Below are positions 27,751-46,678 of a stretch of DNA of 54,756 nt, piece by piece. Position 1 is the stretch's first letter. Every line of letters starts with the position of its first letter. The notes below the pieces were generated by a model that searched no databases, had not been told where the DNA came from, and saw only the letters and a program-made list of their open reading frames with translations. The translations under genes and the position numbers were made by a program. The stretch is from NCBI GenBank assembly GCA_048938105.1, contig JBHLMN010000029.1, forward strand, positions 1-54,756, read 5' to 3'. Source of the stretch: Promethearchaeota archaeon. Lineage in GTDB: Archaea; Asgardarchaeota; Heimdallarchaeia; Hodarchaeales; Hodarchaeaceae.

Positions 27751-28081
27751 TAGCTCTTGTGCGATTAGTGGCCGCTCGCTGAGCATGTCTGTCGAAACCT
27801 CCACGCTTACACGATGACTCTATAAACGGGATCTTCCATCCCAGCACTCATTCACTCACTCACGGTTGCTGTCGCCAGCCCCCGTGTCATACTGACGCGA
27901 GCAAAGCGGATCTGTCTTTTCGAGGGGTGCTTCGTACTTAGATGCATTCAGCACTTATCGCGTGGTGCGTGACAGCCGGGCGATACCCTTTCAGATAACC
28001 CGTAGATTAGAGGCGCCGACGTCCCGTTCCTCTCGTACTAAAAACGTCTTCCTCTCACAGATCCAACACGTCCAATAGATA
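27751..28081 (-). pseudogene. 23S rRNA 3'-terminal fragment (~330 nt, includes the sarcin-ricin loop)
   Basis: Aligns by eye to 53943-54273; SRL AGTACGAGAGGAAC intact; ends at cgtccaatagata. Confidence 0.95.
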
Positions 28082-28082
28082 G

Positions 28083-31000
28083 TCAAAACAAACCAGATCT
28101 CCGTTTAAAGACTCTAAAGAGCGTAAATACTAACATGGAAACAAGAAGAAGGAATAATGTCCAACTAGGGGTTGATAAGGGTTTGATTGTAGAACTAGAT
28201 TCAGTGGTTGTGGGTTCAGAATTTTGGATAATAAATGTAGAGTCTGAAATATCTTCAGATGAAATCGCAGAAGAGCTTATTGCTACAACTTTCACTAGAT
28301 AATTGGAACCATCAGGAACACTAGATAGATCCCAATAAAATAAAGTTCCAGTAAGGCGATCAGCTAGCAAAATCCATGAATTTCCAGCATTAGGAGAGTA
28401 AAAGATTGTATATGTTACTGAATCGCCAAATGAATCTACGGATGGTGACCATTCAATGTGCACACCATAAGCAAGAACCTCATTCCCATTCGGATAGATC
28501 ACCCTTGGCCGCGAAACTAGGTGCACACTAGGATCATACGCTGTAATTAATGGATAATAATCCAAATATCCTTCCGGTCCTTCTAAAAGGTAAGGACTAT
28601 CCACAATACCATCACCATCAATGTCTGGCCCGATCCAGTCACTGTAGTAATTAAACGAATATGTATTTCCACCGAGTTGCTGACCATCATAAAGTTGGGA
28701 ACCTCCACCCTGATTGTTATCAATGAAATTATTGAACGAGACCATGGTTCTCCAGGCCCTACTTTCAATGGCATACATTGAATTACCAAAAAAGGTGTTT
28801 AAAGTAACATTGCAATATTTAGAAGCGATAAAATGGAGACCAATCGAATTCTGAGAAAAAGTATTGTTATGAATTAGCGCAAGATCTGAATCGTCAACAG
28901 AGAGTCCGAAATTTTCATTGAACTGGAGTGTATTATTTATTATTGTCACACCAGGGGAGTCCCAGACAAGAATTCCAGAATTATTGTTTGAGATTAATAA
29001 ATTGCTGTCAACAGTGTTCTTATATCCAAAGAAGTGGTTATCTATGTCATTTACTAAAATTCCAGCAAGGAAATTGGCATAGGCAATATTGCATGAGATA
29101 GTAAAGTTGTTTCCATATCGGATGTGAATTCCAGCTTCTGTATTATTAAATGCCTCATTGAAAGCAATAATGATGTCATTAGAACGATATGTTTTAGCTC
29201 CTGAATAATAATTGGAGTACAGTTTGTTATTGAAGATTAGTACTAGATCTGATTCCCGGACCTGAACCCCTACTCGATTGTTACACAAAATATTCTCAGT
29301 AACATCTATTTGAAAAGACTCACGGACAAAAATCCCATGCCAGCGATTGTCAACAATGGAATTATCTGTAAGGTAAAGATTAACGCCCTCCTGAATGTCA
29401 ACACCATCATCGTTATTTTCTGTAATAGTATTGTTAAAAATTCTCAAATCCTCTACTTTGAGAAAATATATTCCATCTCCATCATTTTTAATGACATAAT
29501 TATCCTTTAGTGTAACATTAGAGGTATACCAGAAATACATTCCCTCAAACAATGAATAGGAAACATTGTTTTCACAAATAATAAGATCTCTGGTTCCTAA
29601 ACAGATCAACCCAATAGAAGAATTGTATAGCGTTTGGTGAGATATCATTATATTTCTACAGTCCAACAGAATTATTTGTCCTGTATTTTGAGGAATAGTC
29701 TTATCACTGACATTACACCAGAAAATCAGCTTCTTACCATTGATAGTATTTCCTGTAACGTTTTTATGATAGTAATCATCAAGGTCTAACTCACTCGAAG
29801 GTGTTGTGAGCCCTATACCAGTATTCTCTAGAGTATTATTCAAAATGTAATTAGATCTCCCCCTATGCAGATAGATTCCCCAATTCTGGTTTTTTATGGT
29901 GTTGTTGAAAACATACGAAAGGCCACCTCTTAAATATATACCATAATCACCATTATCTTTGATAATATTTGATGAGATATTCCCCCGAGTTATAGAAATT
30001 CCCCAGAAAGAATTGTCATGAATATAGTTATTTAGAATTGAACAGTTGCTTCCCCCAGGATAAAGTCCTCCTGCTCGATTGTTGTCAATTTCATTCTTAC
30101 GAATATTACTATAGTATGCTGCTACGTACATGCCATAATTAGTGTTATTAGTAACATGATTATTGAAAATGAAGTTGTCAGTCGAATCATAGTTGTAAGA
30201 GGAGCGTAGTTCAATGCCATTAAATCCATTATTAGATACAAAATTTGATGAAATAACCGATAATGCGATAGCCATCAGCATCATTCCGGTATCATCATTA
30301 TTGAAGACCAAATTTCCTATAAATGAACTATTCTCTGAATAACAAACGTAAATCCCCTCCCAATGATTATAGGAAGCAGTATTTCCTGAAATATTGAGGT
30401 AATGAGAGTGATCAGTCCTAATTCCCCAATGATTGATGAAAGAGACATTATTTTCAATTATTGAAACGTTAAAGGAGGAGTCTACCGAAATTCCCGCACC
30501 ATCTATGCATTCCAAGATAACGTTTGAAAAAATGGAAATGTTGTTAGCATGCATAACCTGAATTCCTATTCTATCAATTCCAGAAATCATATTATTATGG
30601 ATCGAAAGATTTGAGCTTTGATAAACAAAAATCGCATTTGATGTGTTTGTAAGCTCGTGGCCCGAAATCTCTATGTTTGCTGAATTGATAACGAATATTT
30701 GTCCTGCGCCTCCTCCTGTGGCTGTATATGCTGTTACATTATACAAATAAAGTAAGTGTTTGTCATTAACATAATTATTAGTAACGCTATATTGAATGTA
30801 ATGAGAATCTTCTGATGCTGCAATATATAAACCAGCATTGTATAAATAATTTCCAATTAGAGTATTATTGAAGGAATGAAAAAGAGAAATGCCATAAACA
30901 GGTTCGAGAGAGTGGTCAAGATTATTTGAGATAATATTATTCTGAATATAAGCACTTTCAGTTATATCGACATCAATCCCTCTTGGTGAGTCAATAATAG

Positions 31001-31616
31001 TATTCCCTGAAATATTGCAATATGGGGAATATGAGATAGAAATCCCGCTCTCCACAAAATTTGAGATGTTATTACGGACAATAAGCCCATTTCTGACATC
31101 ATCGAACGATATCCCAATATGTCCTAAAGAAGAAGTGCCTCTATCAAGATTACAATTCAAAATTTGAAAAAAGAGACTAGTATCTTGAATATCGATAAAT
31201 GTATAAGTGTCTGCAGAGATAATATTAATATTTTCAATAAGAATAGGATTTGAAGAAGTACCAGTACCAGGCCATCCTTCAGTTGCAGCTTGAGAAAGAA
31301 AATCAGAGTTACTAGTAATGCGAATCGGGGTATGAGACTGAATAGCTCTTGAAATTCCTCCAAGTCGTAACCCATTAGTTTGAACTACCTCTGATGGACA
31401 AACAGGTTCTTGGAAATCAACGGAATTCGTGATACGATTATGACTGCTACGGGGTGAAAGTAATCGCTGCGGTATGGAAACACGGTGATGACTTTCTGAA
31501 GACAGGAGATCGGTTTCTGATGCAGATATGCTTTTCCAATGCAATAGAAGTAAATACATTAAAAAAATAACTAAAATCCAATGTTTTGGTGTTCTGGACA
31601 TTTTTCCAACCCTCAA
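28083..31616 (-). CDS. large cell-surface right-handed beta-helix (NosD/PbH1-like) protein with Ig-like domain and C-terminal anchor
   Basis: Signal peptide, GWPGTGTSSNPILI, many Asn-rich repeats, DIDGDGIVD, PNGNE Ig-like domain, Ser/Thr linker, TM, basic tail. Confidence 0.85.
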   Translation of the reverse strand: MRVGKMSRTPKHWILVIFLMYLLLLHWKSISASETDLLSSESHHRVSIPQRLLSPRSSHNRITNSVDFQEPVCPSEVVQTNGLRLGGISRAIQSHTPIRITSNSDFLSQAATEGWPGTGTSSNPILIENINIISADTYTFIDIQDTSLFFQILNCNLDRGTSSLGHIGISFDDVRNGLIVRNNISNFVESGISISYSPYCNISGNTIIDSPRGIDVDITESAYIQNNIISNNLDHSLEPVYGISLFHSFNNTLIGNYLYNAGLYIAASEDSHYIQYSVTNNYVNDKHLLYLYNVTAYTATGGGAGQIFVINSANIEISGHELTNTSNAIFVYQSSNLSIHNNMISGIDRIGIQVMHANNISIFSNVILECIDGAGISVDSSFNVSIIENNVSFINHWGIRTDHSHYLNISGNTASYNHWEGIYVCYSENSSFIGNLVFNNDDTGMMLMAIALSVISSNFVSNNGFNGIELRSSYNYDSTDNFIFNNHVTNNTNYGMYVAAYYSNIRKNEIDNNRAGGLYPGGSNCSILNNYIHDNSFWGISITRGNISSNIIKDNGDYGIYLRGGLSYVFNNTIKNQNWGIYLHRGRSNYILNNTLENTGIGLTTPSSELDLDDYYHKNVTGNTINGKKLIFWCNVSDKTIPQNTGQIILLDCRNIMISHQTLYNSSIGLICLGTRDLIICENNVSYSLFEGMYFWYTSNVTLKDNYVIKNDGDGIYFLKVEDLRIFNNTITENNDDGVDIQEGVNLYLTDNSIVDNRWHGIFVRESFQIDVTENILCNNRVGVQVRESDLVLIFNNKLYSNYYSGAKTYRSNDIIIAFNEAFNNTEAGIHIRYGNNFTISCNIAYANFLAGILVNDIDNHFFGYKNTVDSNLLISNNNSGILVWDSPGVTIINNTLQFNENFGLSVDDSDLALIHNNTFSQNSIGLHFIASKYCNVTLNTFFGNSMYAIESRAWRTMVSFNNFIDNNQGGGSQLYDGQQLGGNTYSFNYYSDWIGPDIDGDGIVDSPYLLEGPEGYLDYYPLITAYDPSVHLVSRPRVIYPNGNEVLAYGVHIEWSPSVDSFGDSVTYTIFYSPNAGNSWILLADRLTGTLFYWDLSSVPDGSNYLVKVVAISSSAISSEDISDSTFIIQNSEPTTTESSSTIKPLSTPSWTLFLLLVSMLVFTLFRVFKRRSGLF

Positions 31617-31747
31617 GATGCAGAAGGTACTAAAATAGCACCTAAAAAGACTTGTTAAAGGGATTAAATAAAGTTTCGTTATTTAAAACCTCTTCTTATA
31701 GCTATATCATTTGGCGACAATTTCTAAGGAATAATTGTCTAGTACTC

Positions 31748-31843
31748 AAATATCAGACCGAAAGCCCTCACATTGAAGATGATTGAAATTATTGACCCTG
31801 AAGCCCCCTGACGATAGGACTACTTAATTTCCACACGGTTAGC
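31748..31843 (-). repeat. near-complete 23S-trailer repeat (insertion variant)
   Basis: atcagaccgaaagccctcacattgaag...ctgacgataggactacttaatttccacacggttagc. Confidence 0.9.
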
Positions 31844-31991
31844 TTTTTGTAATAACTTTTTGGGAATGCGACTTCAAAACAGTATCTAAAGCCTTAAGAT
31901 CATCAACAGCCATTTCAAAATAGGTAGCACCCCACTCCTGAGCGATCGATTGGCCATCAACCCGTGTAACCACCTCAGAGTCAGCAAGAAG
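31839..31991 (-). pseudogene. 3' remnant of a Rab-like GTPase gene
   Basis: Translates LLADSEVVTRVDGQSIAQEWGATYFEMAVDDLKALDTVLKSHSQKVITKS*, close to 40839..41381; stop codon lies within the repeat. Confidence 0.85.
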
Positions 31992-32124
31992 TCATGGGGA
32001 GCGGATGTCTTGAAAGAAGTTATAAAAATATGAAAATCATTTTTCCATGTAGATGAAACTCTACTGATAAAATTTTAAAATGATGAAAAACACTACATAA
32101 AGAGTAATATTTTCGTGAACCACA

Positions 32125-33381
32125 ATGGGAAGAAATCAATCTCTCTGGATTTTAATAATATGGATTTTATCACAAGGATACTTGTTTTTTATCTTCTTCG
32201 AACAGCGTTCATCAGATTCTTATTATTTTTTCTCAGCGATTTCATTAATCTTTTACTTGATTTTCATCCTCCTTTTCACTAGTCGTTATCAGCACTCGCC
32301 TTCTTGGGTTGAGGAATATCACTCACAGATACAATCTGATTCTTTACAGTCACTTTATGAGCCTCTTACAGAACAAGACATTCTTACTGGTTGGTGGATT
32401 GCTCAGAAAAGGGGGTTAAGAGGCTTCTTACGGAGATTACCTCACATTGAGAGTTTCAGTTCTGATGAAACCGAACGCTCTATTCTTGTTGAAGTAGAGT
32501 CCGAAGCAGAATATTTTCAGACATCCAATACTGAAAGGTCTTTACCTTACTCTCAAGCCAGTGGTTTAGCTTATTTTTCAGAAAAAGAACCCTTTCCAGT
32601 CAATTATCCTAAGACCTTTATCAATTACCACCAAGAATTTCCTCTGCGTGGGACTCTGAAAAAAGAAACGTGTTCTACATGTGGAGGACGAGGGAAAGTA
32701 TCCTGTTCCAATTGTAATGGAAGTGGTACCGTCAGGTGTTCAAGATGTTCTGGCCGAGGTTATATAGAACGGACAGAATGGGATGGGGATAAAACCACAA
32801 CTGTTCGAGATTCCTGTTCGTGTTTTAGTGGAAGAGTTAGCTGTAGTTCCTGTGGTGGTTCTGGGGATATTACGTGTTCTATGTGCCAGGGTGAGGGTTC
32901 TCTTGGGAAATTCACTGGTAGATTATACGAATTCTTTCATTGGAAGAATGTCCATGTCTTTAAGGAGAGAAATAATGAGATCGTGGGAGACGCTGAACTC
33001 AAAGATTTACCTAATGAAGATGCACGCCTGATCGAGATATTAGAAAAAGATTTCTTTCGGGATTCAGAGCCAGATAAAATCCCAAAGGTCAGCAAAAACA
33101 CAATTACTAAGCTGTTAAGTAAAAAACAAGAATTTCAAGGGAATATTAATGAACTTGAAAACCTCTTATTCTATCGACATACATTCAGAGAATTCCCAGA
33201 AGTAAAGATTACCATAAGTAAGGATCAGAAAGATTATGTATTAGTGGGTAGAGGCTTTAGACCATTTAAAGAAGAACATGCGAAATTGGGGGATTATCCA
33301 ATATCTAAATTGCGATTGATCGCACTGTATATCCCCTATAGTGTTATTTTAACCCTCGCTTACATCTTAATCTTGCTCTAA
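32125..33381 (+). CDS. membrane protein with a DnaJ-type CxxCxGxG zinc-finger array (SSUH2-like architecture)
   Basis: CSTCGGRG, CSNCNGSG, CSRCSGRG, CSSCGGSG, CSMCQGEG; no J-domain HPD. Confidence 0.7.
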   Translation: MGRNQSLWILIIWILSQGYLFFIFFEQRSSDSYYFFSAISLIFYLIFILLFTSRYQHSPSWVEEYHSQIQSDSLQSLYEPLTEQDILTGWWIAQKRGLRGFLRRLPHIESFSSDETERSILVEVESEAEYFQTSNTERSLPYSQASGLAYFSEKEPFPVNYPKTFINYHQEFPLRGTLKKETCSTCGGRGKVSCSNCNGSGTVRCSRCSGRGYIERTEWDGDKTTTVRDSCSCFSGRVSCSSCGGSGDITCSMCQGEGSLGKFTGRLYEFFHWKNVHVFKERNNEIVGDAELKDLPNEDARLIEILEKDFFRDSEPDKIPKVSKNTITKLLSKKQEFQGNINELENLLFYRHTFREFPEVKITISKDQKDYVLVGRGFRPFKEEHAKLGDYPISKLRLIALYIPYSVILTLAYILILL

Positions 33382-33392
33382 AAGCCGTCATT

Positions 33393-34538
33393 TTATTGTA
33401 TTCGGATTAACCTTCCCTGACAAAAAGGGCATGCACTAATACCAACGACTTTACTGCTCTCATGACAGCTCGCGCACACATTACGAGAACATTTTTCACA
33501 CTCATAGGCGGAATCGGTAGCGGGATGTTTTTGGCCATCGATCTGACAAAAAAAACTCCTTCTTTCTTTAGGAGTCGGAATAATTTCTGAATCAAGATCC
33601 ATTGGTTCAGGTGCTACAGGTTTTGGTGGTTTTTCAATTGTTGTCTCATAGAGTTTCTTAGCTAGAGGAGTAAAAATAATGTCATTCCTTGCCTCTGACT
33701 CAATTGAAGGTGGAGGTTTAGGAGATTTCCTAGGTAGCACTGGACTGGGAGGCGAAGGCGACCTCAGCAGGAATAAAAAGATAATAATGAAAAATCCCAA
33801 TCCTGTAAGAAAAAGCGATGCGATCAGGGAATATGTAGGATCATCAGCTAAAGGAGAAGTTGTAGCTGGAGCTGAAGTTGGTGCAGGAGGATCTTCAGAA
33901 TAAAAAATGAGGAGAGGAGGACTACCAAGACCTTTTTGTGTCCCCTCCCTAGAAATAAATGAAATAAGGTCAAATCCAGTTCTAATTGTATCTGTTTGGA
34001 GAATAAAAGTCAATTTTTCATCTACCATTAAATTATCCTCAATCCAGCTAGAGACATCCCAACTATAATTATAAAAATCTGAACCCACATTCTGTGTATC
34101 CAAAGGTATGTAAGGAGGAAGTGGGAAATTATTGAAGGTGACCTCTGCTTCGTCCCAGGTAGTATTATTACAACCATAAACCTCAACCAAATAACTTGTT
34201 AACACAACTCCTGTTTGTAATTGTAATACAACAAAAGCTAATGAATCTGGAAGTAGTTTATATGGAATATCAAATCGAAGAATGATCAACTGTTCAGCAG
34301 TTTCAGTCTTCCAGATCTGTAATCCATCAGCGAAACCATGATTTCTAGAAGGAGCAGTTGAATCAACGTAGGAATCAGCTTCAGCAATGCAGACAACTCT
34401 TGGGTATAGGTTCGGACTCCCATCAACCCCAAAAAACCCATATATCTGTAAAACGAGGGTAAAGATAAAGAAAAAGGAAAACGTCCTTGTAGAAGATTTT
34501 CTAAACAAATGATGGATTTTTTGTAGCATTCCTGCCAC
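33393..34538 (-). CDS. single-pass protein: extracellular DNRLRE/CBM96-like domain, TM, Pro-rich linker, cytoplasmic Cys-rich zinc finger
   Basis: ADSYVD..P..NHG, LRFDI, WDEAEVTFNN, FISRE; C-terminal CQID...CEKC...CASC...CPFC. Confidence 0.7.
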   Translation of the reverse strand: MAGMLQKIHHLFRKSSTRTFSFFFIFTLVLQIYGFFGVDGSPNLYPRVVCIAEADSYVDSTAPSRNHGFADGLQIWKTETAEQLIILRFDIPYKLLPDSLAFVVLQLQTGVVLTSYLVEVYGCNNTTWDEAEVTFNNFPLPPYIPLDTQNVGSDFYNYSWDVSSWIEDNLMVDEKLTFILQTDTIRTGFDLISFISREGTQKGLGSPPLLIFYSEDPPAPTSAPATTSPLADDPTYSLIASLFLTGLGFFIIIFLFLLRSPSPPSPVLPRKSPKPPPSIESEARNDIIFTPLAKKLYETTIEKPPKPVAPEPMDLDSEIIPTPKERRSFFCQIDGQKHPATDSAYECEKCSRNVCASCHESSKVVGISACPFCQGRLIRIQ

Positions 34539-34713
34539 TCATCCTTATCCATAAACATATGACCTTGTAGTTTTATAACCTTAACTCTCATCTGGAGGAA
34601 GATCAAAATCAGAATGGCCAATAATTTCTTGAAAATATTCTTTTGATGCTAGAGGTGAACCAAAAAAACAGAATCTAAGATAATTAAATCTCCAGTCATC
34701 TAACGGCGAGAAT

Positions 34714-36513
34714 TCAGCTCGTAAATCTTTTGCGACACATAAAACGAAAAAGCACCATAGCTAGGACTAAACTAATGGAACTAATGGTTCCAAAACCTGG
34801 AGATGTTTCTGAGGATGTCGTTTCTGAGGATGTCGTTGCTTCCCTTATAGAAAACGACCAGACCAAACTCCATGGGCTACTCTCACTCTTGGAATCGACA
34901 GCTCTCACACGCCAGTAATACGTCCCAACCGCAAGGGGGAGGGTTTCATATGAAGAAGTGGTGACATTAACGTCAAGAACTCGAGGGATGTTGAAAAAAA
35001 CCGCATCATCAATTTGAATTACATATTCAACGGTATCATTGACCTCTGTCCAGTTTAGCAATGGTGTATTATCTGTAAGGACTGTTCTGTCAGGAGGAGA
35101 GATTAAAATAGGAACGTCAGCCGCAATGGTGAACGACCAGCTCAAACTCCAGGGGCTAACATTACCCTCTGCATCCACAGCATGGACACGCCAATAAAAA
35201 CTGCCATTTGGGAGGATTGATAACTCATTTGAGTTAGTAAAGGCATTGATATATACAAGCCAAGGCCAGGTGAATGAAAGCTCATCATCCACTTGCACCA
35301 CATAGTATGCAGCATTTCCGATCTCAATCCATTCTAATAGTGGTGAAGCATCTGTAAGGATTACCCCGTCAACAGGGGAGAGTAAAATAGGTGCATTACT
35401 AACAATTGGAGGATAACTTCTAGTATACTTCAAATCATGAGGTCCACCAGCAAAGTAGCTAATGTGAACATAGCCACTGGTATCCAGCGCCAGCGAAGTA
35501 TACCGGCCAACAGAGCTCCAACTGTCCACCGTTGTAATATGCCACCCACTAGCATTCTGGTAAACGTACTTCAAATCACTATTTGGTAAGCCATCATAAT
35601 AGCTGATGTGAGCATAGCCACTGGCATCCAGCGCCAGCGAAGTATATTGACCAACATCACCCGTACTGTCCACCGTTGTAGTATACCACCCACTAACATT
35701 CTGGTGAGCATACTTCAAATCACCATATGTGGAGTAATAATAGCTGATGTGAGCATAGCCACTGGCATCCAGCGCCAGCGAAGTATACTGGCCCGTTTCC
35801 CATGTACGATCCACAGTTATAGTATACCACCCACTAGCATTCTGGTGAGCGTACTTCAAATCACGATTTGCGGAATCATAATAGCTGATGTGAGCATAGC
35901 CACTGGCATCCAGCGCCAGCGAAGTATACCGGCCTGTTGTACCCGCACTGTCCACGGTTGTAATATACCACCCACTAGCATTCTGATGAGCGTACTTCAA
36001 ATCACCATGTGAGGTATCATAATAGCTGATGTGAGCATAGCCACTAGCATCCAGCGCCAGCGAAGTCTCCCAGCCGACATAACCCGTACTGTCCAATGTT
36101 GTAATATACCACCCACTAGCATTCTGGTGAGCGTACTTCAAATCACTATTTGTAGAGTCATGATAGCTGATGTGAGCATAGCCACTGGCATCCAGCGCCA
36201 GCGAAGTATGCAAGCCAACATTACCCACGGTGTCCACGGTTATAATGTGCCACCCACTAGCATTCTGGTGAGCGTACTTCAAATCACCATTTAAGTAATC
36301 ATGATAGCTGATGTGAGCATTGCCACTGGCATCCAGCGCCAAGGAAGTGAACACGCCAACGGTCTCTGAACTATCTACAATCGTAAAGGACCAGGTTATT
36401 GAAACCCCTGCAACATAAGACACCTTTCTAAAGCTCATAAACAGTAAAAGGGCAAGAGTAAGAAGTAGGAACCACATAGGTGTCGATTTCCTCTTTCTGT
36501 GGAAAGGCTTCAT
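34714..36513 (-). CDS. cell-surface protein with 7 x ~47-aa beta-propeller repeats and two FN3/Ig-like domains; paralog of 21925..24765
   Basis: Counted 7 repeats; same C-terminal domains and SPGF-TM-basic tail. Confidence 0.85.
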   Translation of the reverse strand: MKPFHRKRKSTPMWFLLLTLALLLFMSFRKVSYVAGVSITWSFTIVDSSETVGVFTSLALDASGNAHISYHDYLNGDLKYAHQNASGWHIITVDTVGNVGLHTSLALDASGYAHISYHDSTNSDLKYAHQNASGWYITTLDSTGYVGWETSLALDASGYAHISYYDTSHGDLKYAHQNASGWYITTVDSAGTTGRYTSLALDASGYAHISYYDSANRDLKYAHQNASGWYTITVDRTWETGQYTSLALDASGYAHISYYYSTYGDLKYAHQNVSGWYTTTVDSTGDVGQYTSLALDASGYAHISYYDGLPNSDLKYVYQNASGWHITTVDSWSSVGRYTSLALDTSGYVHISYFAGGPHDLKYTRSYPPIVSNAPILLSPVDGVILTDASPLLEWIEIGNAAYYVVQVDDELSFTWPWLVYINAFTNSNELSILPNGSFYWRVHAVDAEGNVSPWSLSWSFTIAADVPILISPPDRTVLTDNTPLLNWTEVNDTVEYVIQIDDAVFFNIPRVLDVNVTTSSYETLPLAVGTYYWRVRAVDSKSESSPWSLVWSFSIREATTSSETTSSETSPGFGTISSISLVLAMVLFRFMCRKRFTS

Positions 36514-36697
36514 TCAATCATCTTCATCAAAATTCAGTGTTAAGTTCGAATACTAGTATCAGGCATCAGAATATAAAAAGATGACTACTCATAGGATACA
36601 AAAACTGAACTGCTGAAGAGTCAACGCACCTTAATAAGGCGGAATGCAGCATTCCAGCTAATCTTCCACGATGTTATTTTATTGATTGAGTTCGAAA

Positions 36698-36759
36698 TAA
36701 GCTAACGACTCCTGAAGCCCCCTGACGATAGCGTGGGGGAAAGATCCTAATTTCCATAC
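36698..36759 (-). repeat. partial 23S-trailer repeat (B+C)
   Basis: aagctaacgactcctgaagccccctgacgatagcgtggggg...taatttcca. Confidence 0.85.
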
Positions 36760-37658: not shown

Positions 37659-37761
37659 CAGACATCAGACCGAACACCCTCACATTGAAGATTATTGAAA
37701 TTATTGACTCCTGAAGCCAACTGACAATATTTTTCTAAAGATACTTAATTTCCACACAGTT
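37659..37761 (-). repeat. near-complete 23S-trailer repeat (insertion variant)
   Basis: cagacatcagaccgaacaccctcacattgaag...gactcctgaagccaactgac...ttaatttccacac. Confidence 0.9.
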
Positions 37762-38339
37762 TGTGCTAAGTCCTCTAAATTGGTGTTTTAAGTATCGATT
37801 CAATTTGATGCGATAATAAACGAATAGTTTCTTCAATTTCTTGAAGGTCTTAGTTTCTAACATAGCACTTGGGTCACTGGAAATTAGCACTAGCAAATTA
37901 ATCGGCTCTAGCTTGGATTTGAACCCCATCAATGATTCAAGCTGTTTTGCTTCCGATTAAACCCCAGAGGGTAACTGCAATTCGTTAGCCTTCTCTAGGA
38001 GAGTTAAAAATGTTATACGTCAGACTCATAAGCATCTGAGACATGAAGTCTTAAAGTGGGATCTGCTAATGATATTAAAAGGACATCATCTAAATGATTC
38101 ATAAACTTCAGAGTCAGGAGAACTTGTCGAATTGTTCGGAGTCAAAATCGTTATAGAATTGCCTGTAAATCCTCTTCTTTTTCGATTGCTTCTGCTTCAG
38201 GAATGATTTCACTTGCTTCCGTAGTTATTCGTTTAACCGCTTCATGAATTGAATTATTATAGATAGATGTCTGGAAAAACGTGATCGAAGCCACTAGCAG
38301 CTTATAATAAAAAAAAGGAATAAATTAATGATAATTTAT

Positions 38340-39374: not shown

Positions 39375-39620
39375 TTTTCTACCTCCAATACTTAAGATGG
39401 TTCTTTTTTACAGTTTAGGTATTTCTTGTCATCGCGCCCCTCCTCGGCGCTCCCTCTTGAGAGGTAATATGAATAGGGAGAGATCAAAGCTAATATTAAT
39501 CCATTCCCAGATTTCAACCTCTCAGGAATCAGAAATATCGACTCTCCTCATCGTAATGAAAAACTTTGCAATGAGACCCTTTATAGTAGATTCATTTGCA
39601 TATAAACTTTTCGAGAATAA

Positions 39621-39710
39621 AAAACGCAGAAATCATGACTCCTGAAGCCCCCTGATGATAGATTTTTGGAAAAATCTTAATTTCCACAATTTCTGAAAAA
39701 ATTAGTCTTG
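39621..39710 (-). repeat. partial 23S-trailer repeat (B+C)
   Basis: tgactcctgaagccccctgatgatagatttttggaaaaatcttaatttccacaa. Confidence 0.85.
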
Positions 39711-39766
39711 ACTAAGATATAAAAACCCTTATAAGTGGAGAATTTCCTCTATTAGAATGGAGTAAA

Positions 39767-40204
39767 ATGATTTCCTTTGAGAAAGAAAATGACTTGGATC
39801 GAATTCTTGGGACACCTAGTGCTCAAAACATAATCCGAACTCTCGCGTGTTGGGAAAGATTACCAGTCAAAGCATTAATTGAAAAAACACATTTGAGTGA
39901 AAGCCAAATTCATGCAACATTAAAGAACTTAATTCAAATTGGGATTGTAACCAGTCCTTCACGCGGATATTACCAGTTTACACAAACAGAAGTGGTAAGA
40001 AAAATCCAAGAAGCTTATACCTCCATTCTTATTCAGTCCGTGGGAGAGGAGCTCTACAAAATAATGAAGACTACCAACGAGTATACACCAGAGGAATTAG
40101 CAGCCATTTTAGGAAAACTACAAGAAAAATGGGGCCCAATAATACAGAACCATTATTCACGAATGTTTTCATCTCTAGTCGAATCTACAATTGATCAGAT
40201 TTAA
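39767..40204 (+). CDS. winged helix-turn-helix protein
   Basis: LIEKTHLSESQIHATLKNLIQIGIV...RGYY wHTH pattern. Confidence 0.75.
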   Translation: MISFEKENDLDRILGTPSAQNIIRTLACWERLPVKALIEKTHLSESQIHATLKNLIQIGIVTSPSRGYYQFTQTEVVRKIQEAYTSILIQSVGEELYKIMKTTNEYTPEELAAILGKLQEKWGPIIQNHYSRMFSSLVESTIDQI

Positions 40205-40212
40205 GGGATTCT

Positions 40213-40683
40213 ATGCGACACCCCTCTGATCAGCTGTTAGAATCTATAGACGAGGCAAAACGACTCATTTTCGATCATTTTCAAATCAACATTGAAGCTG
40301 ACATTATCATTTGTACCATTGATGAAATGACCAATCGACTTAACCAGCTTTATTCACCAAAAGCATTACCCATTTTTGAAAAAATCAAACCATTATTACG
40401 CTATCTGGATGGAAAATACTTCAAGGAAGAACAGGAAATATGGCTGATTGAGGAAAGAGGAGAAAATTTACCCACAATTATGCATGAAATGTTACATTCA
40501 ATCCAAAAATGTGATACAGACTATCGGGACCCTATTGTACACTATCTCACATTTAAACTAACTGGAGACAAAACAGGGATTTATAATACTTTGATCGAAG
40601 ATTGGAGAGAAATAGAAAGAATATATGGCCTCAATCAAATAAAAGAAAGATTGATCTCAGAAGGAGACTGTGAAGACTTCTAG
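40213..40683 (+). CDS. HExxH zinc-metallopeptidase-like protein
   Basis: TIMHEMLHSIQ; 8 bp downstream of the wHTH gene. Confidence 0.65.
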   Translation: MRHPSDQLLESIDEAKRLIFDHFQINIEADIIICTIDEMTNRLNQLYSPKALPIFEKIKPLLRYLDGKYFKEEQEIWLIEERGENLPTIMHEMLHSIQKCDTDYRDPIVHYLTFKLTGDKTGIYNTLIEDWREIERIYGLNQIKERLISEGDCEDF

Positions 40684-40811
40684 AAAGATCTATCTTCTCA
40701 AAAAGAACTATAAAAGAAAACAGACAGAATAATAAAACACCAACAAGAAACCAAGGGTGAGGAGAGGCTTTTTGACCAGAATGTTGCGTTTCCTCATCCA
40801 TTTCTCATTCA

Positions 40812-40854
40812 CCGAAACGCAAGAACAGCGTACAGACATCAGACCGACTGCCCT
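40812..40854 (-). repeat. module A of the 23S-trailer repeat supplying the stop of 40839..41381
   Basis: gaaacgcaagaacagcgtacagacatcagaccgactgccct. Confidence 0.9.
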
Positions 40855-41381
40855 TTATGTGTAAGGACTTGTTGTACAAGAGACCTCACGACAGCATCGA
40901 AGGTCGAGAGATCATCCACCGCCATTTCAAAATAGGTAGCACCACACTCCTGAGCGAGGGATTGACCTTCAACCTGAGGTACAACCTCAGAGTCAGCACG
41001 AAGGCCAATAAAAGCAACAGGAACAGCAAGGTCAGGGATATGGGTTCGAAACTCGTGATAATGCTTAATGGCGGACTTAAAAAAGGTACGATCCGCTTTG
41101 GAGAAAGCAAAGACAGCAGCAGAAGCCCCTCGAAAATAGGTTGGCCGTAGTTTATCAAAAAATTCTTTTGTTGAAATATCGTCCAAAATAAGTTTGATAT
41201 TGTTATTATTGGCCGTAATCTGTTTAGTAGGAAAAGGTGCTAAAACACCTAGGGAAGACCTTGTAGAGGAATTAGGTGTTCTATCCGCATAGGAACATAA
41301 AGATGGGGTTAATAATTCATCAGGGCAACATAAAACACAAATTTTGAGTAGATATTCTTGTTCTACCAATGAGAGCTCCAC
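40839..41381 (-). CDS. degenerate Rab-like GTPase
   Basis: LLKICVL, KLILDD...FFDKLRPTYFRGASAAVFAF; P-loop replaced by CCPDELL. Confidence 0.8.
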   Translation of the reverse strand: MELSLVEQEYLLKICVLCCPDELLTPSLCSYADRTPNSSTRSSLGVLAPFPTKQITANNNNIKLILDDISTKEFFDKLRPTYFRGASAAVFAFSKADRTFFKSAIKHYHEFRTHIPDLAVPVAFIGLRADSEVVPQVEGQSLAQECGATYFEMAVDDLSTFDAVVRSLVQQVLTHKGQSV

Positions 41382-41403
41382 ATTCCACTTCTATATATTT
41401 CCT

Positions 41404-41446
41404 CCGAAACGCACAAACAGCGTACAAACATCAGACCGACTCCCCT
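41404..41446 (-). repeat. module A of the 23S-trailer repeat supplying the stop of 41431..41967
   Basis: gaaacgcacaaacagcgtacaaacatcagaccgactcccct. Confidence 0.9.
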
Positions 41447-41967
41447 TTATGCAATAGTACTTTTTGAAAAAGAGACCTCACGACAGCATCAAAGGTCTGG
41501 AGATCATCCGCAGCCAATTCAAAATAAGCAACGCTAAGCTCTTGAGCTAAGGCTTGACCGTCCTTCTGAGAAACTATTTCAGGATCAGAATGCAGACCAA
41601 GAAAGGCAATGGTAGGGACAGGATGAGGGATATGTTGTTTGAACCAGTGATATAAAGCAATAGCTGAATCAAAAAACTTGTGGTTGCTTTTGGAGAAAGC
41701 AAAGACAACAGCAGAAGCGGAACGAATATGGTTCGGATAGAGAACTTTAAAAACGGGATTGGTTGAAAGATCGGTTAAAATGAGTTTAATATTGGCGTTA
41801 ACAACCGTAATCTGTTTAGGAAGAATATTAACACCAGTGGTAGATTTTGTTAAGGGGTCAAGTCCTCCATCTGCATAAGAAAAAAGAGATGGGGATAGGA
41901 GTCTATCAGGATAACAGAAAATACAAATTTTGAGAAGATATTCCCGTTCTGCCATATGTATCTCCAC
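41431..41967 (-). CDS. degenerate Rab-like GTPase, tandem paralog of 40839..41381
   Basis: Shared termini and FDAVVRSL...HKGxSV. Confidence 0.8.
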   Translation of the reverse strand: MEIHMAEREYLLKICIFCYPDRLLSPSLFSYADGGLDPLTKSTTGVNILPKQITVVNANIKLILTDLSTNPVFKVLYPNHIRSASAVVFAFSKSNHKFFDSAIALYHWFKQHIPHPVPTIAFLGLHSDPEIVSQKDGQALAQELSVAYFELAADDLQTFDAVVRSLFQKVLLHKGESV

Positions 41968-41990
41968 ATTCCACTACCATATATTCACTA

Positions 41991-42103
41991 CGAAACGCAA
42001 GAACAGCGTACAGACATCAGACCAAACGCCCACACATTGAAGATAATTGAAATAATTGACTCCTAAAGCCACCTGACGATAGATCCACTGAATTTCCACA
42101 CAC
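41991..42103 (-). repeat. near-complete 23S-trailer repeat (insertion variant)
   Basis: cagcgtacagacatcagacc...gactcctaaagccacctgacgatag...aatttccacac. Confidence 0.9.
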
Positions 42104-42126
42104 TAATTTTTTTTTGCTAATAGCTT

Positions 42127-42624
42127 TTATTTCTCACTAAAATATGTTTGCACGAAATCAACGAAGATCCTGTGCATTGTCTGTTTGTCAGAAAGAGCCA
42201 GTTCATAATACGTCATATTCAAATTGGTTGCGACTTCTTTACCTTTTTCAGTGGAAATTTTCTCATTATTATCGATGATAACGCTAATTAAGGCATTAGG
42301 GATACTTCGCTTGGGATACTTCTCTCTATAAAGGCTATACAAGTGTTGTGCGAGGATAAACGACTCCGAATCATTTTTAGCATAACAAAAGATGTTAGCA
42401 ATAGAGGAACGAAAATCGTTCAGCTGCTGTTGGTGAAGATTGGGAGGAACAGCAGCGAGGATTAATTTAATGGTTTGATTATCTACTATAATCTTTCTAG
42501 TATTAAATAGTGGTATTCCTGAATGATAGTACTGTTTATCCATTCGACTATCAGCATGAATATCTACCAAATCAGCACTTAATTTGCCAACAAAAGATAT
42601 TTTTAGCAGATATTCATCAGGCAT
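42127..42624 (-). CDS. degenerate Rab-like GTPase
   Basis: MPDEYLLKISFVG, IIVDNQTIKLIL, EKGKEVATNLNMTYYE. Confidence 0.7.
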   Translation of the reverse strand: MPDEYLLKISFVGKLSADLVDIHADSRMDKQYYHSGIPLFNTRKIIVDNQTIKLILAAVPPNLHQQQLNDFRSSIANIFCYAKNDSESFILAQHLYSLYREKYPKRSIPNALISVIIDNNEKISTEKGKEVATNLNMTYYELALSDKQTMHRIFVDFVQTYFSEK

Positions 42625-42658
42625 TTATCTCTCCACAATCCACTTCGATTTATTCACT

Positions 42659-42747
42659 CCGAAAAGCAAGAACAGCGTACAGACATCAGACCGAACGCCC
42701 TCACATTGAAGATAATTGAAATTATTGCCTCCTGAAGCCATCTGACA
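42659..42747 (-). repeat. 23S-trailer repeat (A+B, insertion variant)
   Basis: cagcgtacagacatcagaccgaacgccctcacattgaagataattgaaattattgcctcctgaagccatctgac. Confidence 0.9.
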
Positions 42748-42851
42748 AAAGGAATTTTCCTAGAAATTCATTATTTTGGAATTCTATACCTTGCTATTGG
42801 TCAGTATTTTCATTTATAAATAAGATTAAATAGGATAAAACTAGTGAATAA

Positions 42852-43547
42852 TTGGAAAAAGAGATGGGAAGACTTTCAATATTAGATAAGAAGAACTTGG
42901 CTGTCATACGTATAGGATTGGTTGCTATCTTCTTTATCACCTGTGTGGTTGTACCCGCAATGAAACTCCTCCCTTTTTTTGAATGGACTATAATTCAGGT
43001 ACATCACACATTCGTGGAATTTGATCAAACAACTACAAGAGTCTATTTTGATGGAATAACTCGTTATAAAACTTACTCCGCTGAACGTTTTCCTGATACT
43101 ATTCATGAATACTCGTTTAATGAACTAAAAAACGATTTGTGGAAATATGATCTTTACCCCAAATTGTCTAGAGAATACCTAGAGATTCTGTCACCGTCAG
43201 GGATGGGATTGATTTTACTAGGAACGATTATTTTCGGGTTGAAACTTGGAATGTATTATTACTTATGGCAATTCGAGAAACAAATTAAACCTTTGATATA
43301 TCACGGGAGTTCGATCGTTACAGTTCTTGGAATTTCTATACATTGGACTCTTCTAATTATAGCATTCGTAGGAGCAAACCCGATCCCCGTATATGGCGCA
43401 ACAAGAAGTTTTTTACTCCCTCCAACACCAAATCTGATACTGGTTATCTTAATGGTCTTGGGGATAGTTAGCTTAATGGTCTCAGATCATATTGAATCGA
43501 TTTTATCACGTCTTGAAAGAGTGCTCAGCTCAGACCGAAAGTCCTGA
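42852..43547 (+). CDS. hypothetical membrane protein
   Basis: 4 TMs; last codons and stop lie in the repeat at 43530. Confidence 0.65.
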   Translation: MEKEMGRLSILDKKNLAVIRIGLVAIFFITCVVVPAMKLLPFFEWTIIQVHHTFVEFDQTTTRVYFDGITRYKTYSAERFPDTIHEYSFNELKNDLWKYDLYPKLSREYLEILSPSGMGLILLGTIIFGLKLGMYYYLWQFEKQIKPLIYHGSSIVTVLGISIHWTLLIIAFVGANPIPVYGATRSFLLPPTPNLILVILMVLGIVSLMVSDHIESILSRLERVLSSDRKS

Positions 43548-43646
43548 AACTGAAGCTAACGACTCCTTAAGCCAACTGACGATATTTTTCTAAAAATACT
43601 TAATTTCCACAGTTTTCTTAAAATTAGCCCGTGTGCGATTAGTAGG
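43530..43646 (-). repeat. near-complete 23S-trailer repeat with 23S end (D)
   Basis: tcagaccgaaagtcctgaaactgaagctaacgactcc...ttaatttccacag...ttagcccgtgtgcgattagt. Confidence 0.9.
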
Positions 43647-43711
43647 AAAGGATCATACAACCATAATATTTTTAATACTGTACTACATGTATATACATAA
43701 GGGGTGTTATA

Positions 43712-43969
43712 ATGGCTAATATCAGCGTACGCGTAGATGCAAGGATGAAGAAAGAAATGGAGCGCTTGAAGCAAGTAAATTGGAGTGAAGTGATCAGAGT
43801 AGCGATAAAAGAGCGCCTCGATCAGGAAAAACAAAAAAATCTTGCAAAAGCAGTTTTAATTAACGAAAAAATCCGTAGAAAAGCCCCAAGCGGATATGAC
43901 AGTACAAAGATCATTCGAGAATGGAGAGATCGGAGAAGTCAGAGCACTGAAAGATCGACAGGAGGGTGA
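43712..43969 (+). CDS. vapB: VapB-type antitoxin (RHH)
   Basis: ISVRVDARMKKEM...VNWSEVIRVAI; GTGA overlap with the PIN gene. Confidence 0.8.
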   Translation: MANISVRVDARMKKEMERLKQVNWSEVIRVAIKERLDQEKQKNLAKAVLINEKIRRKAPSGYDSTKIIREWRDRRSQSTERSTGG

Positions 43970-44424
43970 AACAGATACAAAAAATAGTCGTGGATGCAAG
44001 TCTAGTGGTAAAGTGGTTCATTAGCGAAAAATACAGTAATCTAGCTCTAGAAATTAGAGACCATTTTGTTGATGGGCAAATAGAGTTGTATGCGCCTAAT
44101 TTATTGCATTATGAGGTTCTGAATGCACTAAAATACAGTAATTTATTCTCTCGAGAGAACCTAGCTGATGCGGTCACCTCATTAGAAAATTATGGGATTA
44201 TTCAATTACCACTAAATGGGGAATATGCACAAAAAACAATGCATTTAGCAGTGGATCATAACATCTCCATCTATGATGCAGCATATGTGAGTTTAACCGA
44301 TGTCATGGGAATTTGCGCATATTCAGCAGATAAGAAATTAGTGGATACAGTGCATAAAGACTATGGAAAGTCTTTCTTTTTCATTACAACCCTAGAGGAG
44401 AAGAATGAAAAACCTGACGCCTAA
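43966..44424 (+). CDS. vapC: VapC PIN-domain toxin
   Basis: VVDASLVVKWF, YEVLNAL, SIYDAAYV, SADKKL. Confidence 0.9.
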   Translation: MKQIQKIVVDASLVVKWFISEKYSNLALEIRDHFVDGQIELYAPNLLHYEVLNALKYSNLFSRENLADAVTSLENYGIIQLPLNGEYAQKTMHLAVDHNISIYDAAYVSLTDVMGICAYSADKKLVDTVHKDYGKSFFFITTLEEKNEKPDA

Positions 44425-44477
44425 AAAGAATAATTTCCACAAATTTTGAAAAAATAAGCCCTTGTGCGATTAATGGG
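44413..44477 (-). repeat. partial 23S-trailer repeat (C+D)
   Basis: cctgacg...taatttccacaaattttgaaaaaataagcccttgtgcgatta. Confidence 0.8.
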
Positions 44478-44613
44478 AGGCCTGTTATCAAAAGTAATAT
44501 TACTAGCAACTCTTATTAGTTTTCAATCTCACAATGTTGTAATAATTTTAGTCAGCTGGATAAAACAAAAGAGAAAAGGAGATTGTTAATACGAATAAAA
44601 AGGGGAAAATCAA

Positions 44614-45582
44614 GTGAAATTATTCAAACTATCACGAGCTTTATCCACAACAACATGGTTATCTTTGATATTTTCATGTTTAATCCTTTCTTCGATTGCT
44701 GTAAATAGCGACAGTCGAAGCTGGAATGTAGGAAAAACCTATTCCTATAAAGGATTAACAGAAGTAAAGGAAGATGGAGAACATCATCAAAGAGAAGAAA
44801 AGTTTCAGTTTCGGATTGAGGAGATCAAAGAAAAAACAATTGTCACGTATGTTGATATGCTTACTTCAAAGGGAAGGTATAATCGCACACTTGAATTTCA
44901 GAATGATATTGGTTTCTTTAGAGGGGTGCGGCCATGCGAACTGAAAGTCCTCCCAGCTGACTGTGTAACCCCTCCCTTCCCTGGAATAGTTTACACTGAT
45001 ATTCTCTTGAGGTATGGTATAGATTCTGATATATATGGTATATATGATATGCCCATGCCTTTATTTATAAATCCGGAATGGGATCTGATCAATTCATATC
45101 TGAAAAATATTGGATTCAACCCAGATACGTATATATACCGATCTCAGACAGACTATCAGACCAAGGTGACTTTGGGTGAATTCCTTAATCAGGCAAGCTC
45201 ATACGAAATTATGGGAAAAACGAATATCACAGAGGCCTTAGATCTTTTCACTAATTCAACTCGGGAATGGTGGTGGGAGTTTCATTTTAACAACATTGTA
45301 CGAGTACGAAAGCAAGGTGCCCCAATCCATGCAGATCAACCCAGGTACAAGACCTATGACCTGTCAGTGAATATCAAATATTCAGAAGGAGGGATCCTAG
45401 AGACATTTCAAGCTGAGAGGGGTTATAGTTATGAGAATGAAAGTTTCTTCTCTTTCTCCAAAGACTTTACAATAGATCAACCCTCACTAGGTATCCCAGG
45501 ATTTGATTTTTTCAGTGTCACAATGGCTGTGCTTCTTACTACAGGATTAATAGTTCAAAGAAGAAGAAGATCTCTTTATTAA
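44614..45582 (+). CDS. secreted/cell-surface protein with PGF-like C-terminal anchor
   Basis: Signal peptide; IPGF-TM-RRRR tail. Confidence 0.75.
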   Translation: MKLFKLSRALSTTTWLSLIFSCLILSSIAVNSDSRSWNVGKTYSYKGLTEVKEDGEHHQREEKFQFRIEEIKEKTIVTYVDMLTSKGRYNRTLEFQNDIGFFRGVRPCELKVLPADCVTPPFPGIVYTDILLRYGIDSDIYGIYDMPMPLFINPEWDLINSYLKNIGFNPDTYIYRSQTDYQTKVTLGEFLNQASSYEIMGKTNITEALDLFTNSTREWWWEFHFNNIVRVRKQGAPIHADQPRYKTYDLSVNIKYSEGGILETFQAERGYSYENESFFSFSKDFTIDQPSLGIPGFDFFSVTMAVLLTTGLIVQRRRRSLY

Positions 45583-45742
45583 GAAAATTAGCCCTTGTGC
45601 GATTAGTAGGATCTAGGAGGAAGTTTTTTCACATGAGAAATTAAGAGCGATTTTAGAAAATTAATATCCTCTGAAACGCAACAACAGCAGACAGAAATCA
45701 GACCGCTCCTGCTTTAATTGAAGCTAACAACATTTTAAGCTA
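45583..45742 (-). repeat. two partial 23S-trailer repeats (D at 45583-45610; A+degenerate B at 45672-45742)
   Basis: aaattagcccttgtgcgattagt; cagcagacagaaatcagaccg...aattgaagctaac. Confidence 0.8.
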
Positions 45743-46229
45743 TTTCCCTAAGCTTTTGTAAAATTTCTTTAACATTACTGAAATAATCAATCTGCTGAGT
45801 TACACCCGTTGATAGATAGCCTTTCAGAGTTTTCTGAATTACCTCTTTCTGACTTATTGATACCTGATTTGCTTTTGGGTGAAAGATAAAAACAGAAGCA
45901 TTCGGACTATACTGAGAAAGGCATTGTAGGGAGAGATCTAAACAATATTTTGCTCGAGAAAGATCGGAGATGATGATTGACTCTATAATGAAGACTAATG
46001 CTTTCACATAACTAAAAATCTCTCGTTTAACAAATTTCTCACTTTCAAGCAATTCCAGAGATTCACTATGACTTAATGGATAGAGCTTCCTTCTTAATAA
46101 GTCGATCCGTCTCAAGATCCGATTTATTAATTCAGAATTAGCCTCGATCCTATCGTAATAAACCATCTTTTCTGAAAATCCCAGAATAAGAATTCTATCT
46201 TCTTTAACTCCCATAACAATCAGCTTCAT
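45735..46229 (-). CDS. degenerate Rag/Gtr-like fold protein; paralog of 8630..9124
   Basis: Very similar sequence and same repeat context. Confidence 0.6.
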   Translation of the reverse strand: MKLIVMGVKEDRILILGFSEKMVYYDRIEANSELINRILRRIDLLRRKLYPLSHSESLELLESEKFVKREIFSYVKALVFIIESIIISDLSRAKYCLDLSLQCLSQYSPNASVFIFHPKANQVSISQKEVIQKTLKGYLSTGVTQQIDYFSNVKEILQKLREIA

Positions 46230-46234
46230 GGTTC

Positions 46235-46358
46235 CCGAAAATAACGGAACAGCGTACAGACATCAGACTGAATGCCCTGAAATTGAAAATAATTGAAATT
46301 ATTGACTCCTTAAGCTATCTGACGATAGGACTACTTAATTTCCACAGTATTTTAAAAC
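46235..46358 (-). repeat. near-complete 23S-trailer repeat attached to a 23S fragment
   Basis: cagcgtacagacatcagactgaatgccctg...gacgataggactacttaatttccacag. Confidence 0.95.
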
Positions 46359-46678
46359 TAGCCCTTGTGCGATTAGTGGCCGCTCGCTGAGCATGTCGGT
46401 CGAAACCTCCACGCTTGCATGACGGCTCTATCAACGGGATCTTCTATCCCAGCACTCGTTCACTCGCTCACGGTTACCGTCGCCAGCCCCCGTGTCATAC
46501 TGACGCGAGCAAAGCGGATCTGTCTTTTCGAGGGGCGCTTCGTACTTAGATGCATTCAGCACTTATCGCGTGGCGGTCGGGCGATACCCTTCCGGATAAC
46601 CCGTAGACTTGAGGCGCCTACATCCCGTTCCTCTTGTAATGAGAGCGTGTTCCTCTCACAGATCCAACACGTCCTATA
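46359..46678 (-). pseudogene. 23S rRNA 3'-terminal fragment (~320 nt), decayed
   Basis: Aligns to 53943-54270; 7-nt deletion and a mutated sarcin-ricin loop; ends at cgtcctata. Confidence 0.95.

What the first reader, a model, noticed from the sequence alone, without database searches (positions are those of the whole stretch)
27751..46678. Two displaced 23S 3' fragments share nearly the same breakpoint
Seen: both long copies (27751-28081, 46359-46678) run from the 23S 3' end to cagatccaacacgtcc(aatagata/tata) and stop within 3-4 nt of each other, just 3' of the central loop of domain V (about E. coli 2613-2617 by motif). Each abuts the stop codon of a cargo gene (1 and 6 bp away). Inference: a common endpoint suggests a site-specific crossover inside rrl, with an incoming element supplying a replacement 3' end as in tRNA-targeting islands. 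This defines successive islands of ~7.6 kb (46679-54270) and ~18.6 kb (28082-46678).
Basis: partly seen in the sequence, partly recalled or inferred. Interest (0 to 1): 0.85.

Follow-up and report, generated by a model that had tools for sequence, protein, structure and literature searches.

The report
Fixed entry point in 23S rRNA
In a genus of Asgard archaea (Hodarchaeales), spare copies of the tail of the large ribosomal RNA gene almost always begin at the same base (about position 2622), each time joined to unrelated foreign DNA, so the rRNA gene seems to have a preferred break point through which new genes enter, although no integrase or recombination site could be found.

Summary
Observation confirmed and much extended. 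Both fragments are real, independent, decaying copies of the resident 23S tail. Across relatives, 22 independent cargo/23S junctions fall at E. coli 2612-2628. Identity to 23S jumps from background (7/22 at 2621) to 17-18/22 at 2622-2624; a minority reach back to 2612-2619. The proximal fragment really starts at 2621, not 2617. This class was seen only in this genus.

The tRNA-island reading holds only in part. There is no integrase in the array, no conserved cargo-side arm, only weak dyad symmetry and no match to the genome's two dif-like site families. The "7.6 and 18.6 kb islands" are composites of 0.6-2.3 kb modules separated by 4 and 11 shorter tail copies in a 66-kb array. The AbiE module moved between species with its junction, and the tail behind it mostly follows the host.

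Best model (0.45): a site-preferring break or one-ended strand exchange at 2621/2622, repaired with a replacement tail plus cargo, then shuffled by homologous recombination. The enzyme is unknown. The scan had already noted such arrays in other Asgard genomes; the fixed breakpoint is what this adds. I found no paper on it.

The parts
53937..54756 (-). 3' part of the resident 23S rRNA gene (about E. coli 2450 to the 3' end), cut by the contig end; the 5' part lies on contig C9
   Evidence: Rfam RF02540
54309..54628 (-). 320-nt ORF-less insert at E. coli 2577/2578 with paired ends, probably a BHB-type intron
   Evidence: (fold z -4.3)
54264..54274 (-). Breakpoint zone in the resident gene, E. 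coli 2612-2622 (3' strand of helix 73); the dominant edge is G2622 = window 54264
53829..53936 (-). Resident trailer (3' ETS): 3' arm of the pre-23S BHB stem (pairs with the ITS) plus an arm complementary to the leader upstream of 16S
   Evidence: duplex energies -59 and -46 kcal/mol
46359..46674 (-). Proximal long fragment: 23S 2621 to 3' end, 96% identical to the gene, 7-nt deletion
46226..46358 (-). Trailer copy of the proximal fragment
27751..28081 (-). Distal long fragment: 23S 2613 to 3' end, 94% identical, 17 of 21 changes C>T or G>A (decay)
27612..27750 (-). Trailer copy of the distal fragment
46675..48602 (.). AbiE toxin-antitoxin module (AbiEi 46685-47563 minus, AbiEii 47671-48612 plus) whose end is joined to the proximal fragment; moved between species with the junction
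28083..31616 (-). 1177-aa beta-helix protein gene whose stop codon lies 1 bp before the distal fragment
49280..53027 (-). Four short tail/trailer copies (49280, 50695, 52045, 52879) that split the '7.6-kb island' into modules (Zn-ribbon, Ras-like GTPases, methyltransferase, Kelch)
31722..45742 (-). Eleven short tail/trailer copies that split the '18.6-kb island' into modules (four small GTPases, PIN, CBM96, repeat protein and others)
43638..44441 (.). PIN module shared at 95% with another genome, bounded by tail copies
39697..40686 (.). Two-gene module shared at 89% with another genome, bounded by tail copies
2843..25823 (-). Distal part of the array: 12 further short copies (one inverted, 7600-7661); it continues into contig C18 (77-bp overlap, 5 more copies); the whole array is about 66 kb

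Best explanation
The 3' end of the 23S gene is an entry point for accessory DNA, and the long fragments are the displaced old tails. Step 1 (inferred): the gene is opened at a preferred position in the 3' strand of helix 73, mostly between 2621 and 2622 and sometimes up to 10 nt upstream, by a trans-acting nuclease or a one-ended strand-exchange reaction. Step 2 (inferred from layout): the upstream end is completed from another allele (incoming DNA or a sister copy), which restores the tail and trailer and brings the cargo behind it; the far end of the cargo is joined to the old tail with 0-2 nt of microhomology. Step 3 (shown by distribution): junction-bearing modules then spread between species, using the tail as a homology arm, and the tail is mostly replaced by or converted to the host's allele. 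Step 4 (shown): tails erode by internal deletion into the short copies, which keep the processing-stem boxes and go on bounding 0.6-2.3 kb modules. The enzyme for step 1 is not identified.
For: 22 junctions with unrelated upstream DNA share one edge: 7/22 identity at 2621, 17-18/22 at 2622-2624. Four reach into 2613-2621 (6 or more of 9 matches; null 2.4%), and none starts upstream of 2612. Unjoined versions of cargo ends share only 1-2 nt with the tail, and no arm consensus exists, which fits a break on one side only. Fragments group by host lineage, not by junction. The AbiE module is 91% identical between species whose rpoB region is 82% identical. It ends in a long fragment in 7 samples and in shorter tail classes in 3 other sequence types, and fragment type conflicts with AbiEi similarity. 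All but one copy are co-oriented and stacked behind the operon, and the distal copy is more decayed (6% against 4%). Internally deleted long fragments link the long and short classes. Homing-type nucleases are active in this operon: a LAGLIDADG gene sits in a 16S intron.
Against: No candidate enzyme was tied to the site. No nuclease recurs behind the long tails, the 16S-intron enzyme's own site is unrelated, and the recurrent genus-specific 515-aa family folds like NirDL/Lrp. A nuclease that cuts the resident gene must be stopped after repair, and the restored site looks unchanged. The edge at 2622 is sharper than resection usually leaves. In one sample the fragment's 5' part travelled with the cassette (shared C2646), so crossover is not always at the edge.
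Confidence: 0.45

Rival explanations
1. True site-specific recombination: a trans-acting tyrosine recombinase (host XerA or an unlinked integrase) crosses over in a short core starting at 2621/2622, with relaxed demands on the donor arm.
For: Sharp edge at 2622. Host-type tail from 2634 on behind the same junction in several hosts. A XerA-like gene is present across the genus, and the genome has two families of dif-like cassette sites.
Against: No conserved cargo-side arm in any register. The 23S site is not among the top-scoring positions of its own region for either dif-like matrix. Dyad only 7/11 and centred on 2610-2618. The edge varies from 2612 to 2628. No integrase in the array.
Confidence: 0.2
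2. Selection boundary rather than cut site: a few old long fragments were copied around by homologous recombination while upstream DNA was repeatedly replaced; sequence from 2622 onward is kept because it is needed (as homology arm, protein-binding site or folded domain VI).
For: Several junction families are old and shared between species. The 2622-2675 piece often survives when the rest is deleted. The trailer boxes are conserved, with spacers that change only in steps of about 10 bp.
Against: It does not explain why nothing starts upstream of 2612, nor the exact 9-nt extension in the distal fragment. The fragments decay neutrally.
Confidence: 0.2
3. RNA origin: cDNA of pre-23S plus trailer, 5'-truncated where a reverse transcriptase stalls on entering helix 73 (long class) or helix 101 (short class), then inserted.
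For: Both start classes lie a few bases inside the 3' strand of a helix. The long class is almost exactly domain VI.
Against: No reverse transcriptase in this 99%-complete genome; the hits in one relative look like contaminating LTR and bacterial genes. Few stops inside the highly structured domain VI. Copies stack behind the operon instead of dispersing.
Confidence: 0.1
4. Assembly artefact or a second, degraded rRNA operon.
For: The contig breaks inside 23S, and many relatives' contigs end in the fragments.
Against: Private mutations, different trailers and cargo junctions, and the same edge in more than a dozen independent assemblies.
Confidence: 0.02

Closest known systems
Integrative elements at tRNA/tmRNA or housekeeping-gene 3' ends, with CIMEs and tandem accretion (PMC5704250)
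   Same: Target gene restored, its end duplicated as a direct repeat, tandem stacking, integrase-less decayed units.
   Different: Target is the 23S rRNA gene; the duplicated end is 320-450 bp; no integrase, no conserved att arm; the edge varies over about 16 nt; most units are bounded by much shorter tail copies.
Homing-endonuclease insertions that leave a duplicated 3' segment of atp6 or cob in fungal mitochondria (layout in PMC6279837; mechanism from my own knowledge)
   Same: An essential gene followed by inserted DNA and then a displaced copy of its own 3' end.
   Different: No endonuclease gene lies between gene and fragment here; cargo is varied (TA systems, small GTPases, surface proteins); dozens of copies.
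Integrons and Xer/pdif modules (own knowledge; two dif-like cassette families verified in this genome)
   Same: Co-oriented repeats bound small gene modules exchanged between species.
   Different: The repeat is an rRNA tail and processing-stem arm, not an attC hairpin or an 11-6-11 site; no IntI; no match to the dif-like matrices.
23S-tail cassette arrays noted by this scan in Thor-, Loki- and Hodarchaeales genomes (unpublished AI notes)
   Same: Same array layout behind the 23S gene, no integrase.
   Different: This report adds the fixed long-fragment edge at 2622, its restriction to one genus among those searched, the host-type tail behind a mobile junction, and the 10-bp spacer steps.

Membership tests
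Tyrosine-integrase island at a gene 3' end (tRNA-type) | Displaced copy of the target's 3' end as a direct repeat, target intact | tested here: met
Tyrosine-integrase island at a gene 3' end (tRNA-type) | Constant crossover point | tested here: inconclusive
   edge at 2622 in 17-18 of 22, range 2612-2628
Tyrosine-integrase island at a gene 3' end (tRNA-type) | Integrase encoded in the element or beside the array | tested here: not met
   PF00589 only on C14, C56, C45; none on array contigs of relatives; serine recombinases elsewhere, no IS110
Tyrosine-integrase island at a gene 3' end (tRNA-type) | Conserved element-side binding arm or dyad around the core | tested here: not met
Tyrosine-integrase island at a gene 3' end (tRNA-type) | Excised circle or empty site | not testable with these tools
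Xer/dif-exploiting module (IMEX, pdif) | 11-6-11 site like the host's dif-like sites | tested here: not met
Integron | IntI beside the array | tested here: not met
Integron | attC-type self-folding site with crossover at GTT | tested here: not met
   a GTTRRRY match lies at 2627-2633, but junctions keep 2622-2626; the repeat pairs with ITS and leader instead
Homing endonuclease with replacement 3' end | Endonuclease gene carried between gene and displaced end | tested here: not met
   the one HNH gene (17691-18293) is distal to both fragments; orphan ORFs remain unassigned
Homing endonuclease with replacement 3' end | Cleavage of the site by an enzyme acting in trans | not testable with these tools
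   needs biochemistry
Retro-copy of rRNA (R2- or SINE-like) | Reverse transcriptase in the host | tested here: not met

The most novel reading that the evidence does not exclude
This genus has a dedicated, undescribed gene-capture reaction: a trans-acting enzyme opens the 23S rRNA gene at 2621/2622 and joins that end to arbitrary DNA, while phased protein-binding boxes in the rRNA trailer serve as the recombination platform. The rRNA operon would then be an integron-like engine that brings in and shuffles small GTPases and other eukaryote-like genes in the lineage closest to eukaryotes.
Probability: 0.3. Interest if true: 0.87.

Novelty: new variant of a known kind. Interest (0 to 1): 0.63.

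Why it matters
Integration at tRNA ends is textbook. A fixed, integrase-free entry point inside the 23S gene, one helix from the peptidyl-transferase centre, is not something I could find described (ten literature searches; Wu 2022 PMC8813620 and Valentin-Alvarado 2024 PMC11529989 do not mention it in the passages searched). It gives a precise, testable substrate (23S 2605-2640) for finding the enzyme. The array carries many Ras/Rag-like GTPases and toxin-antitoxin genes in Hodarchaeales, so it may be a route by which eukaryotic-signature genes expand and move between species. In practice, these tails break assemblies at the rRNA operon and can be mistaken for split or extra rRNA genes.

Tried and rejected
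- Reverse transcriptase: none in the genome; relatives' hits look like contaminants.
- Integrases, serine recombinases, IS110: none linked to the array.
- Dif-like match of the site or of cargo flanks: none.
- Restriction-type hexamer at 2622-2627: not depleted in the genome, and absent from unjoined cargo ends.
- The 515-aa family (21/21 genomes of the genus, 0/49 others; beside four long fragments) as the enzyme: its confident model (pLDDT 92) matches NirDL/Lrp-type folds (Z 12.3, rmsd 5.0, 265 aligned), and most copies are not beside fragments. Residues 1-130 were not searched alone.
- Foreign functional allele in the distal fragment: 17 of 21 changes are C>T or G>A and sites from 2711 on are resident-type, so one compensated pair is expected by chance.
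- 16S-intron LAGLIDADG as the cutter: its own site is unrelated.
- Viral contigs: no fragment with the pattern used.
- Sigma-70 promoter scan uninformative.
Full report
Host and setting. The window is the whole contig C8 of a 5.85-Mb, 35% GC genome. Same-genus relatives are mostly titled Candidatus Hodarchaeota, so the host is an Asgard archaeon of the Hodarchaeales. The contig ends inside the 23S gene (53937-54756, minus strand). The 5' part of 23S, the ITS and 16S lie on C9. A 320-nt ORF-less insert interrupts 23S at E. coli 2577/2578. E. coli numbers are counted from the conserved 2580 motif, from my own knowledge of that sequence; helix 73 as 2043-2057/2611-2625 is also from my own knowledge.

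The observation. Both long copies are there. They are 94% and 96% identical to the gene. The distal one has 21 changes, 17 of them C>T or G>A; the proximal one has 13 changes and a 7-nt deletion; they share only two. Neither is a duplicate of the other, and both look like decaying copies of the resident allele. Both continue into the trailer. The trailer is the 3' arm of the pre-23S bulge-helix-bulge stem, followed by an arm complementary to the leader upstream of 16S.

They belong to a larger array. A profile of the tail finds 29 copies in the window besides the real trailer, all but one in the same orientation. Five more lie on contig C18, which overlaps C8 by 77 bp; the array spans about 66 kb. 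Four short copies lie inside the proposed 7.6-kb island and eleven inside the 18.6-kb one. Relatives share this DNA only as 0.6-2.3 kb blocks, several of which end at tail copies. The cargo includes many Ras/Rag-like GTPases, AbiE and PIN toxin-antitoxin genes, methyltransferases and surface proteins. So the two 'islands' are not single insertions.

The breakpoint in relatives. DNA searches of the genus, a pattern scan and protein look-ups gave about 35 long fragments, which collapse to 22 junctions with unrelated upstream DNA. Identity to the 23S gene is at background up to 2621 (7/22) and 17-18/22 at 2622-2624. Positions from 2625 on were partly used to select fragments; 2622-2624 were not. 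Four junctions extend into 2613-2621 with 6 or more of 9 matches (null 2.4%), the window's distal fragment being the cleanest. None starts upstream of 2612, although the query reached back to 2578. About seven fragments start at scattered places between 2660 and 2890. The short copies cluster too, 12-16 nt before the last helix. In 399 Asgard genomes, the listed and checked matches outside this genus were full genes or contig ends. That search scored only two candidates per genome, so 'not found in those searched' is all that can be said.

The proximal junction is old and mobile. The module is 91% identical between genomes whose rpoB region is 82% identical. Over eleven samples, this gene end is followed by a long fragment (7), by shorter tail classes (3 sequence types), or by none (1). 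The fragment type mostly follows the host's other 23S copies, or another rRNA lineage, rather than AbiEi similarity, already at 2634-2636. That fits crossover right at the edge, but also later gene conversion. In one sample the fragment kept a private base of the window's copy, so the 5' part can also travel with the cassette.

Search for the enzyme and site. The genome has three tyrosine recombinases, none on C8 or C18, and only a XerA-like gene is general in the genus. Serine recombinases lie elsewhere; no IS110 or reverse transcriptase was found. Following a lead from earlier notes, I rebuilt two families of dif-like sites in this genome. The 23S site does not score against them, and the cargo flanks match neither arm in any register. 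Dyad symmetry is weak. Unjoined cargo ends share 1-2 nt with the tail. A LAGLIDADG gene sits in a 16S intron of the same operon, but its own site is unrelated. A 515-aa family confined to the genus and sometimes beside the junction folds like NirDL/Lrp and is best read as a regulator or cargo.

How it most likely works. One side of the junction is fixed and the other arbitrary. That is what a site-preferring break, or a one-ended strand exchange, would leave if the upstream end is completed from another allele carrying tail, trailer and cargo, and the cargo's far end is joined to the old tail. Existing junctions then spread through tail homology, and tails erode to the short classes. Shown: fixed edge, arbitrary flank, host-type tails, horizontal movement of modules, erosion. 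Inferred: the cut, the enzyme and the order of steps. I give this 0.45, a relaxed site-specific recombinase 0.2, a selection boundary 0.2 and an RNA origin 0.1.

An unexplained clue. The spacers between the conserved trailer boxes take two lengths about 10 bp apart: 5 or 15, 10 or 19-20, 24 or 34, with one spacer fixed at 8. Similar 9-10 bp AT-rich inserts occur inside old long fragments. One helical turn suggests phased protein binding on DNA, so the repeats may be functional sites and not only debris. A few ancestral inserts shuffled among copies could also give this pattern.

Comparison and verdict. The closest known kind is tandem accretion of integrative elements at gene 3' ends (PMC5704250). 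Only the displaced-end criterion is met; the integrase and arm criteria fail. Duplicated 3' segments beside homing endonucleases in fungal mitochondria (PMC6279837) are the other analogue, but no such gene lies here. I found no paper on 23S tails in Asgard archaea. The scan's own notes report the arrays in other Asgard genomes, so the array is not new to the scan; the genus-wide edge at 2622 is. Verdict: new variant of a known kind, interest 0.63.

Noticed in passing
trailer copies throughout the window and loci L030-L069: Spacers between conserved boxes change only in steps of about 10 bp (5/15, 10/19-20, 24/34; one fixed at 8). The extra bases are mostly AT-rich quasi-palindromes, and similar inserts occur inside old long fragments.
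   Followed up: partly
trailer copies, e.g. window 41979-42114, 42644-42776, 46226-46386: Many copies are better complements of the 16S leader than the resident trailer is; small GTPase genes start right behind them.
   Followed up: no
own genome C9:2450-3185 (minus): 16S rRNA intron at the conserved position 781 (numbering from memory) encoding a LAGLIDADG homing endonuclease (232-aa open frame).
   Followed up: partly
window 54309-54628: ORF-less 320-nt intron-like insert at 23S 2577/2578; relatives have other short inserts near 2477.
   Followed up: partly
L070:1477-3033 and L071:1471-3027 (own C18), L066:9989-11539: 515-aa NirDL/Lrp-fold orphan family, in 21 of 21 genomes of the genus (1-10 copies) and none of 49 other genomes of the class; an inverted TTTATAA repeat lies upstream of many copies.
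   Followed up: yes
own genome C52:482647-482753: A lone 107-nt 23S piece far from the array that also starts at about 2620; lone trailer-like pieces at C42:74722 and C53:85392.
   Followed up: partly
own genome C3, C56, C61, C53 (family A); C39, C63, C43, C5 (family B): Two families of co-oriented 28-bp dif-like sites (spacers CGTTGG and GGCTGG), about 60 sites each by matrix scan: a separate cassette system.
   Followed up: partly
window 36888-36933: Two overlapping 11-6-11 inverted repeats (10/11) just upstream of a 157-aa gene; probably an operator.
   Followed up: no
window 21925-24765 and 34714-36513: Two paralogous proteins built of 47-aa (141-nt) repeats.
   Followed up: no
L024, L027 (G002) and L047 (G001:C57): LTR-retrotransposon genes and a divergent full 23S gene in relatives' bins, most likely contamination.
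   Followed up: partly
own genome C37:33437-97821: About a dozen co-oriented copies of another short motif (core TTACTCATGAA), not examined.
   Followed up: no
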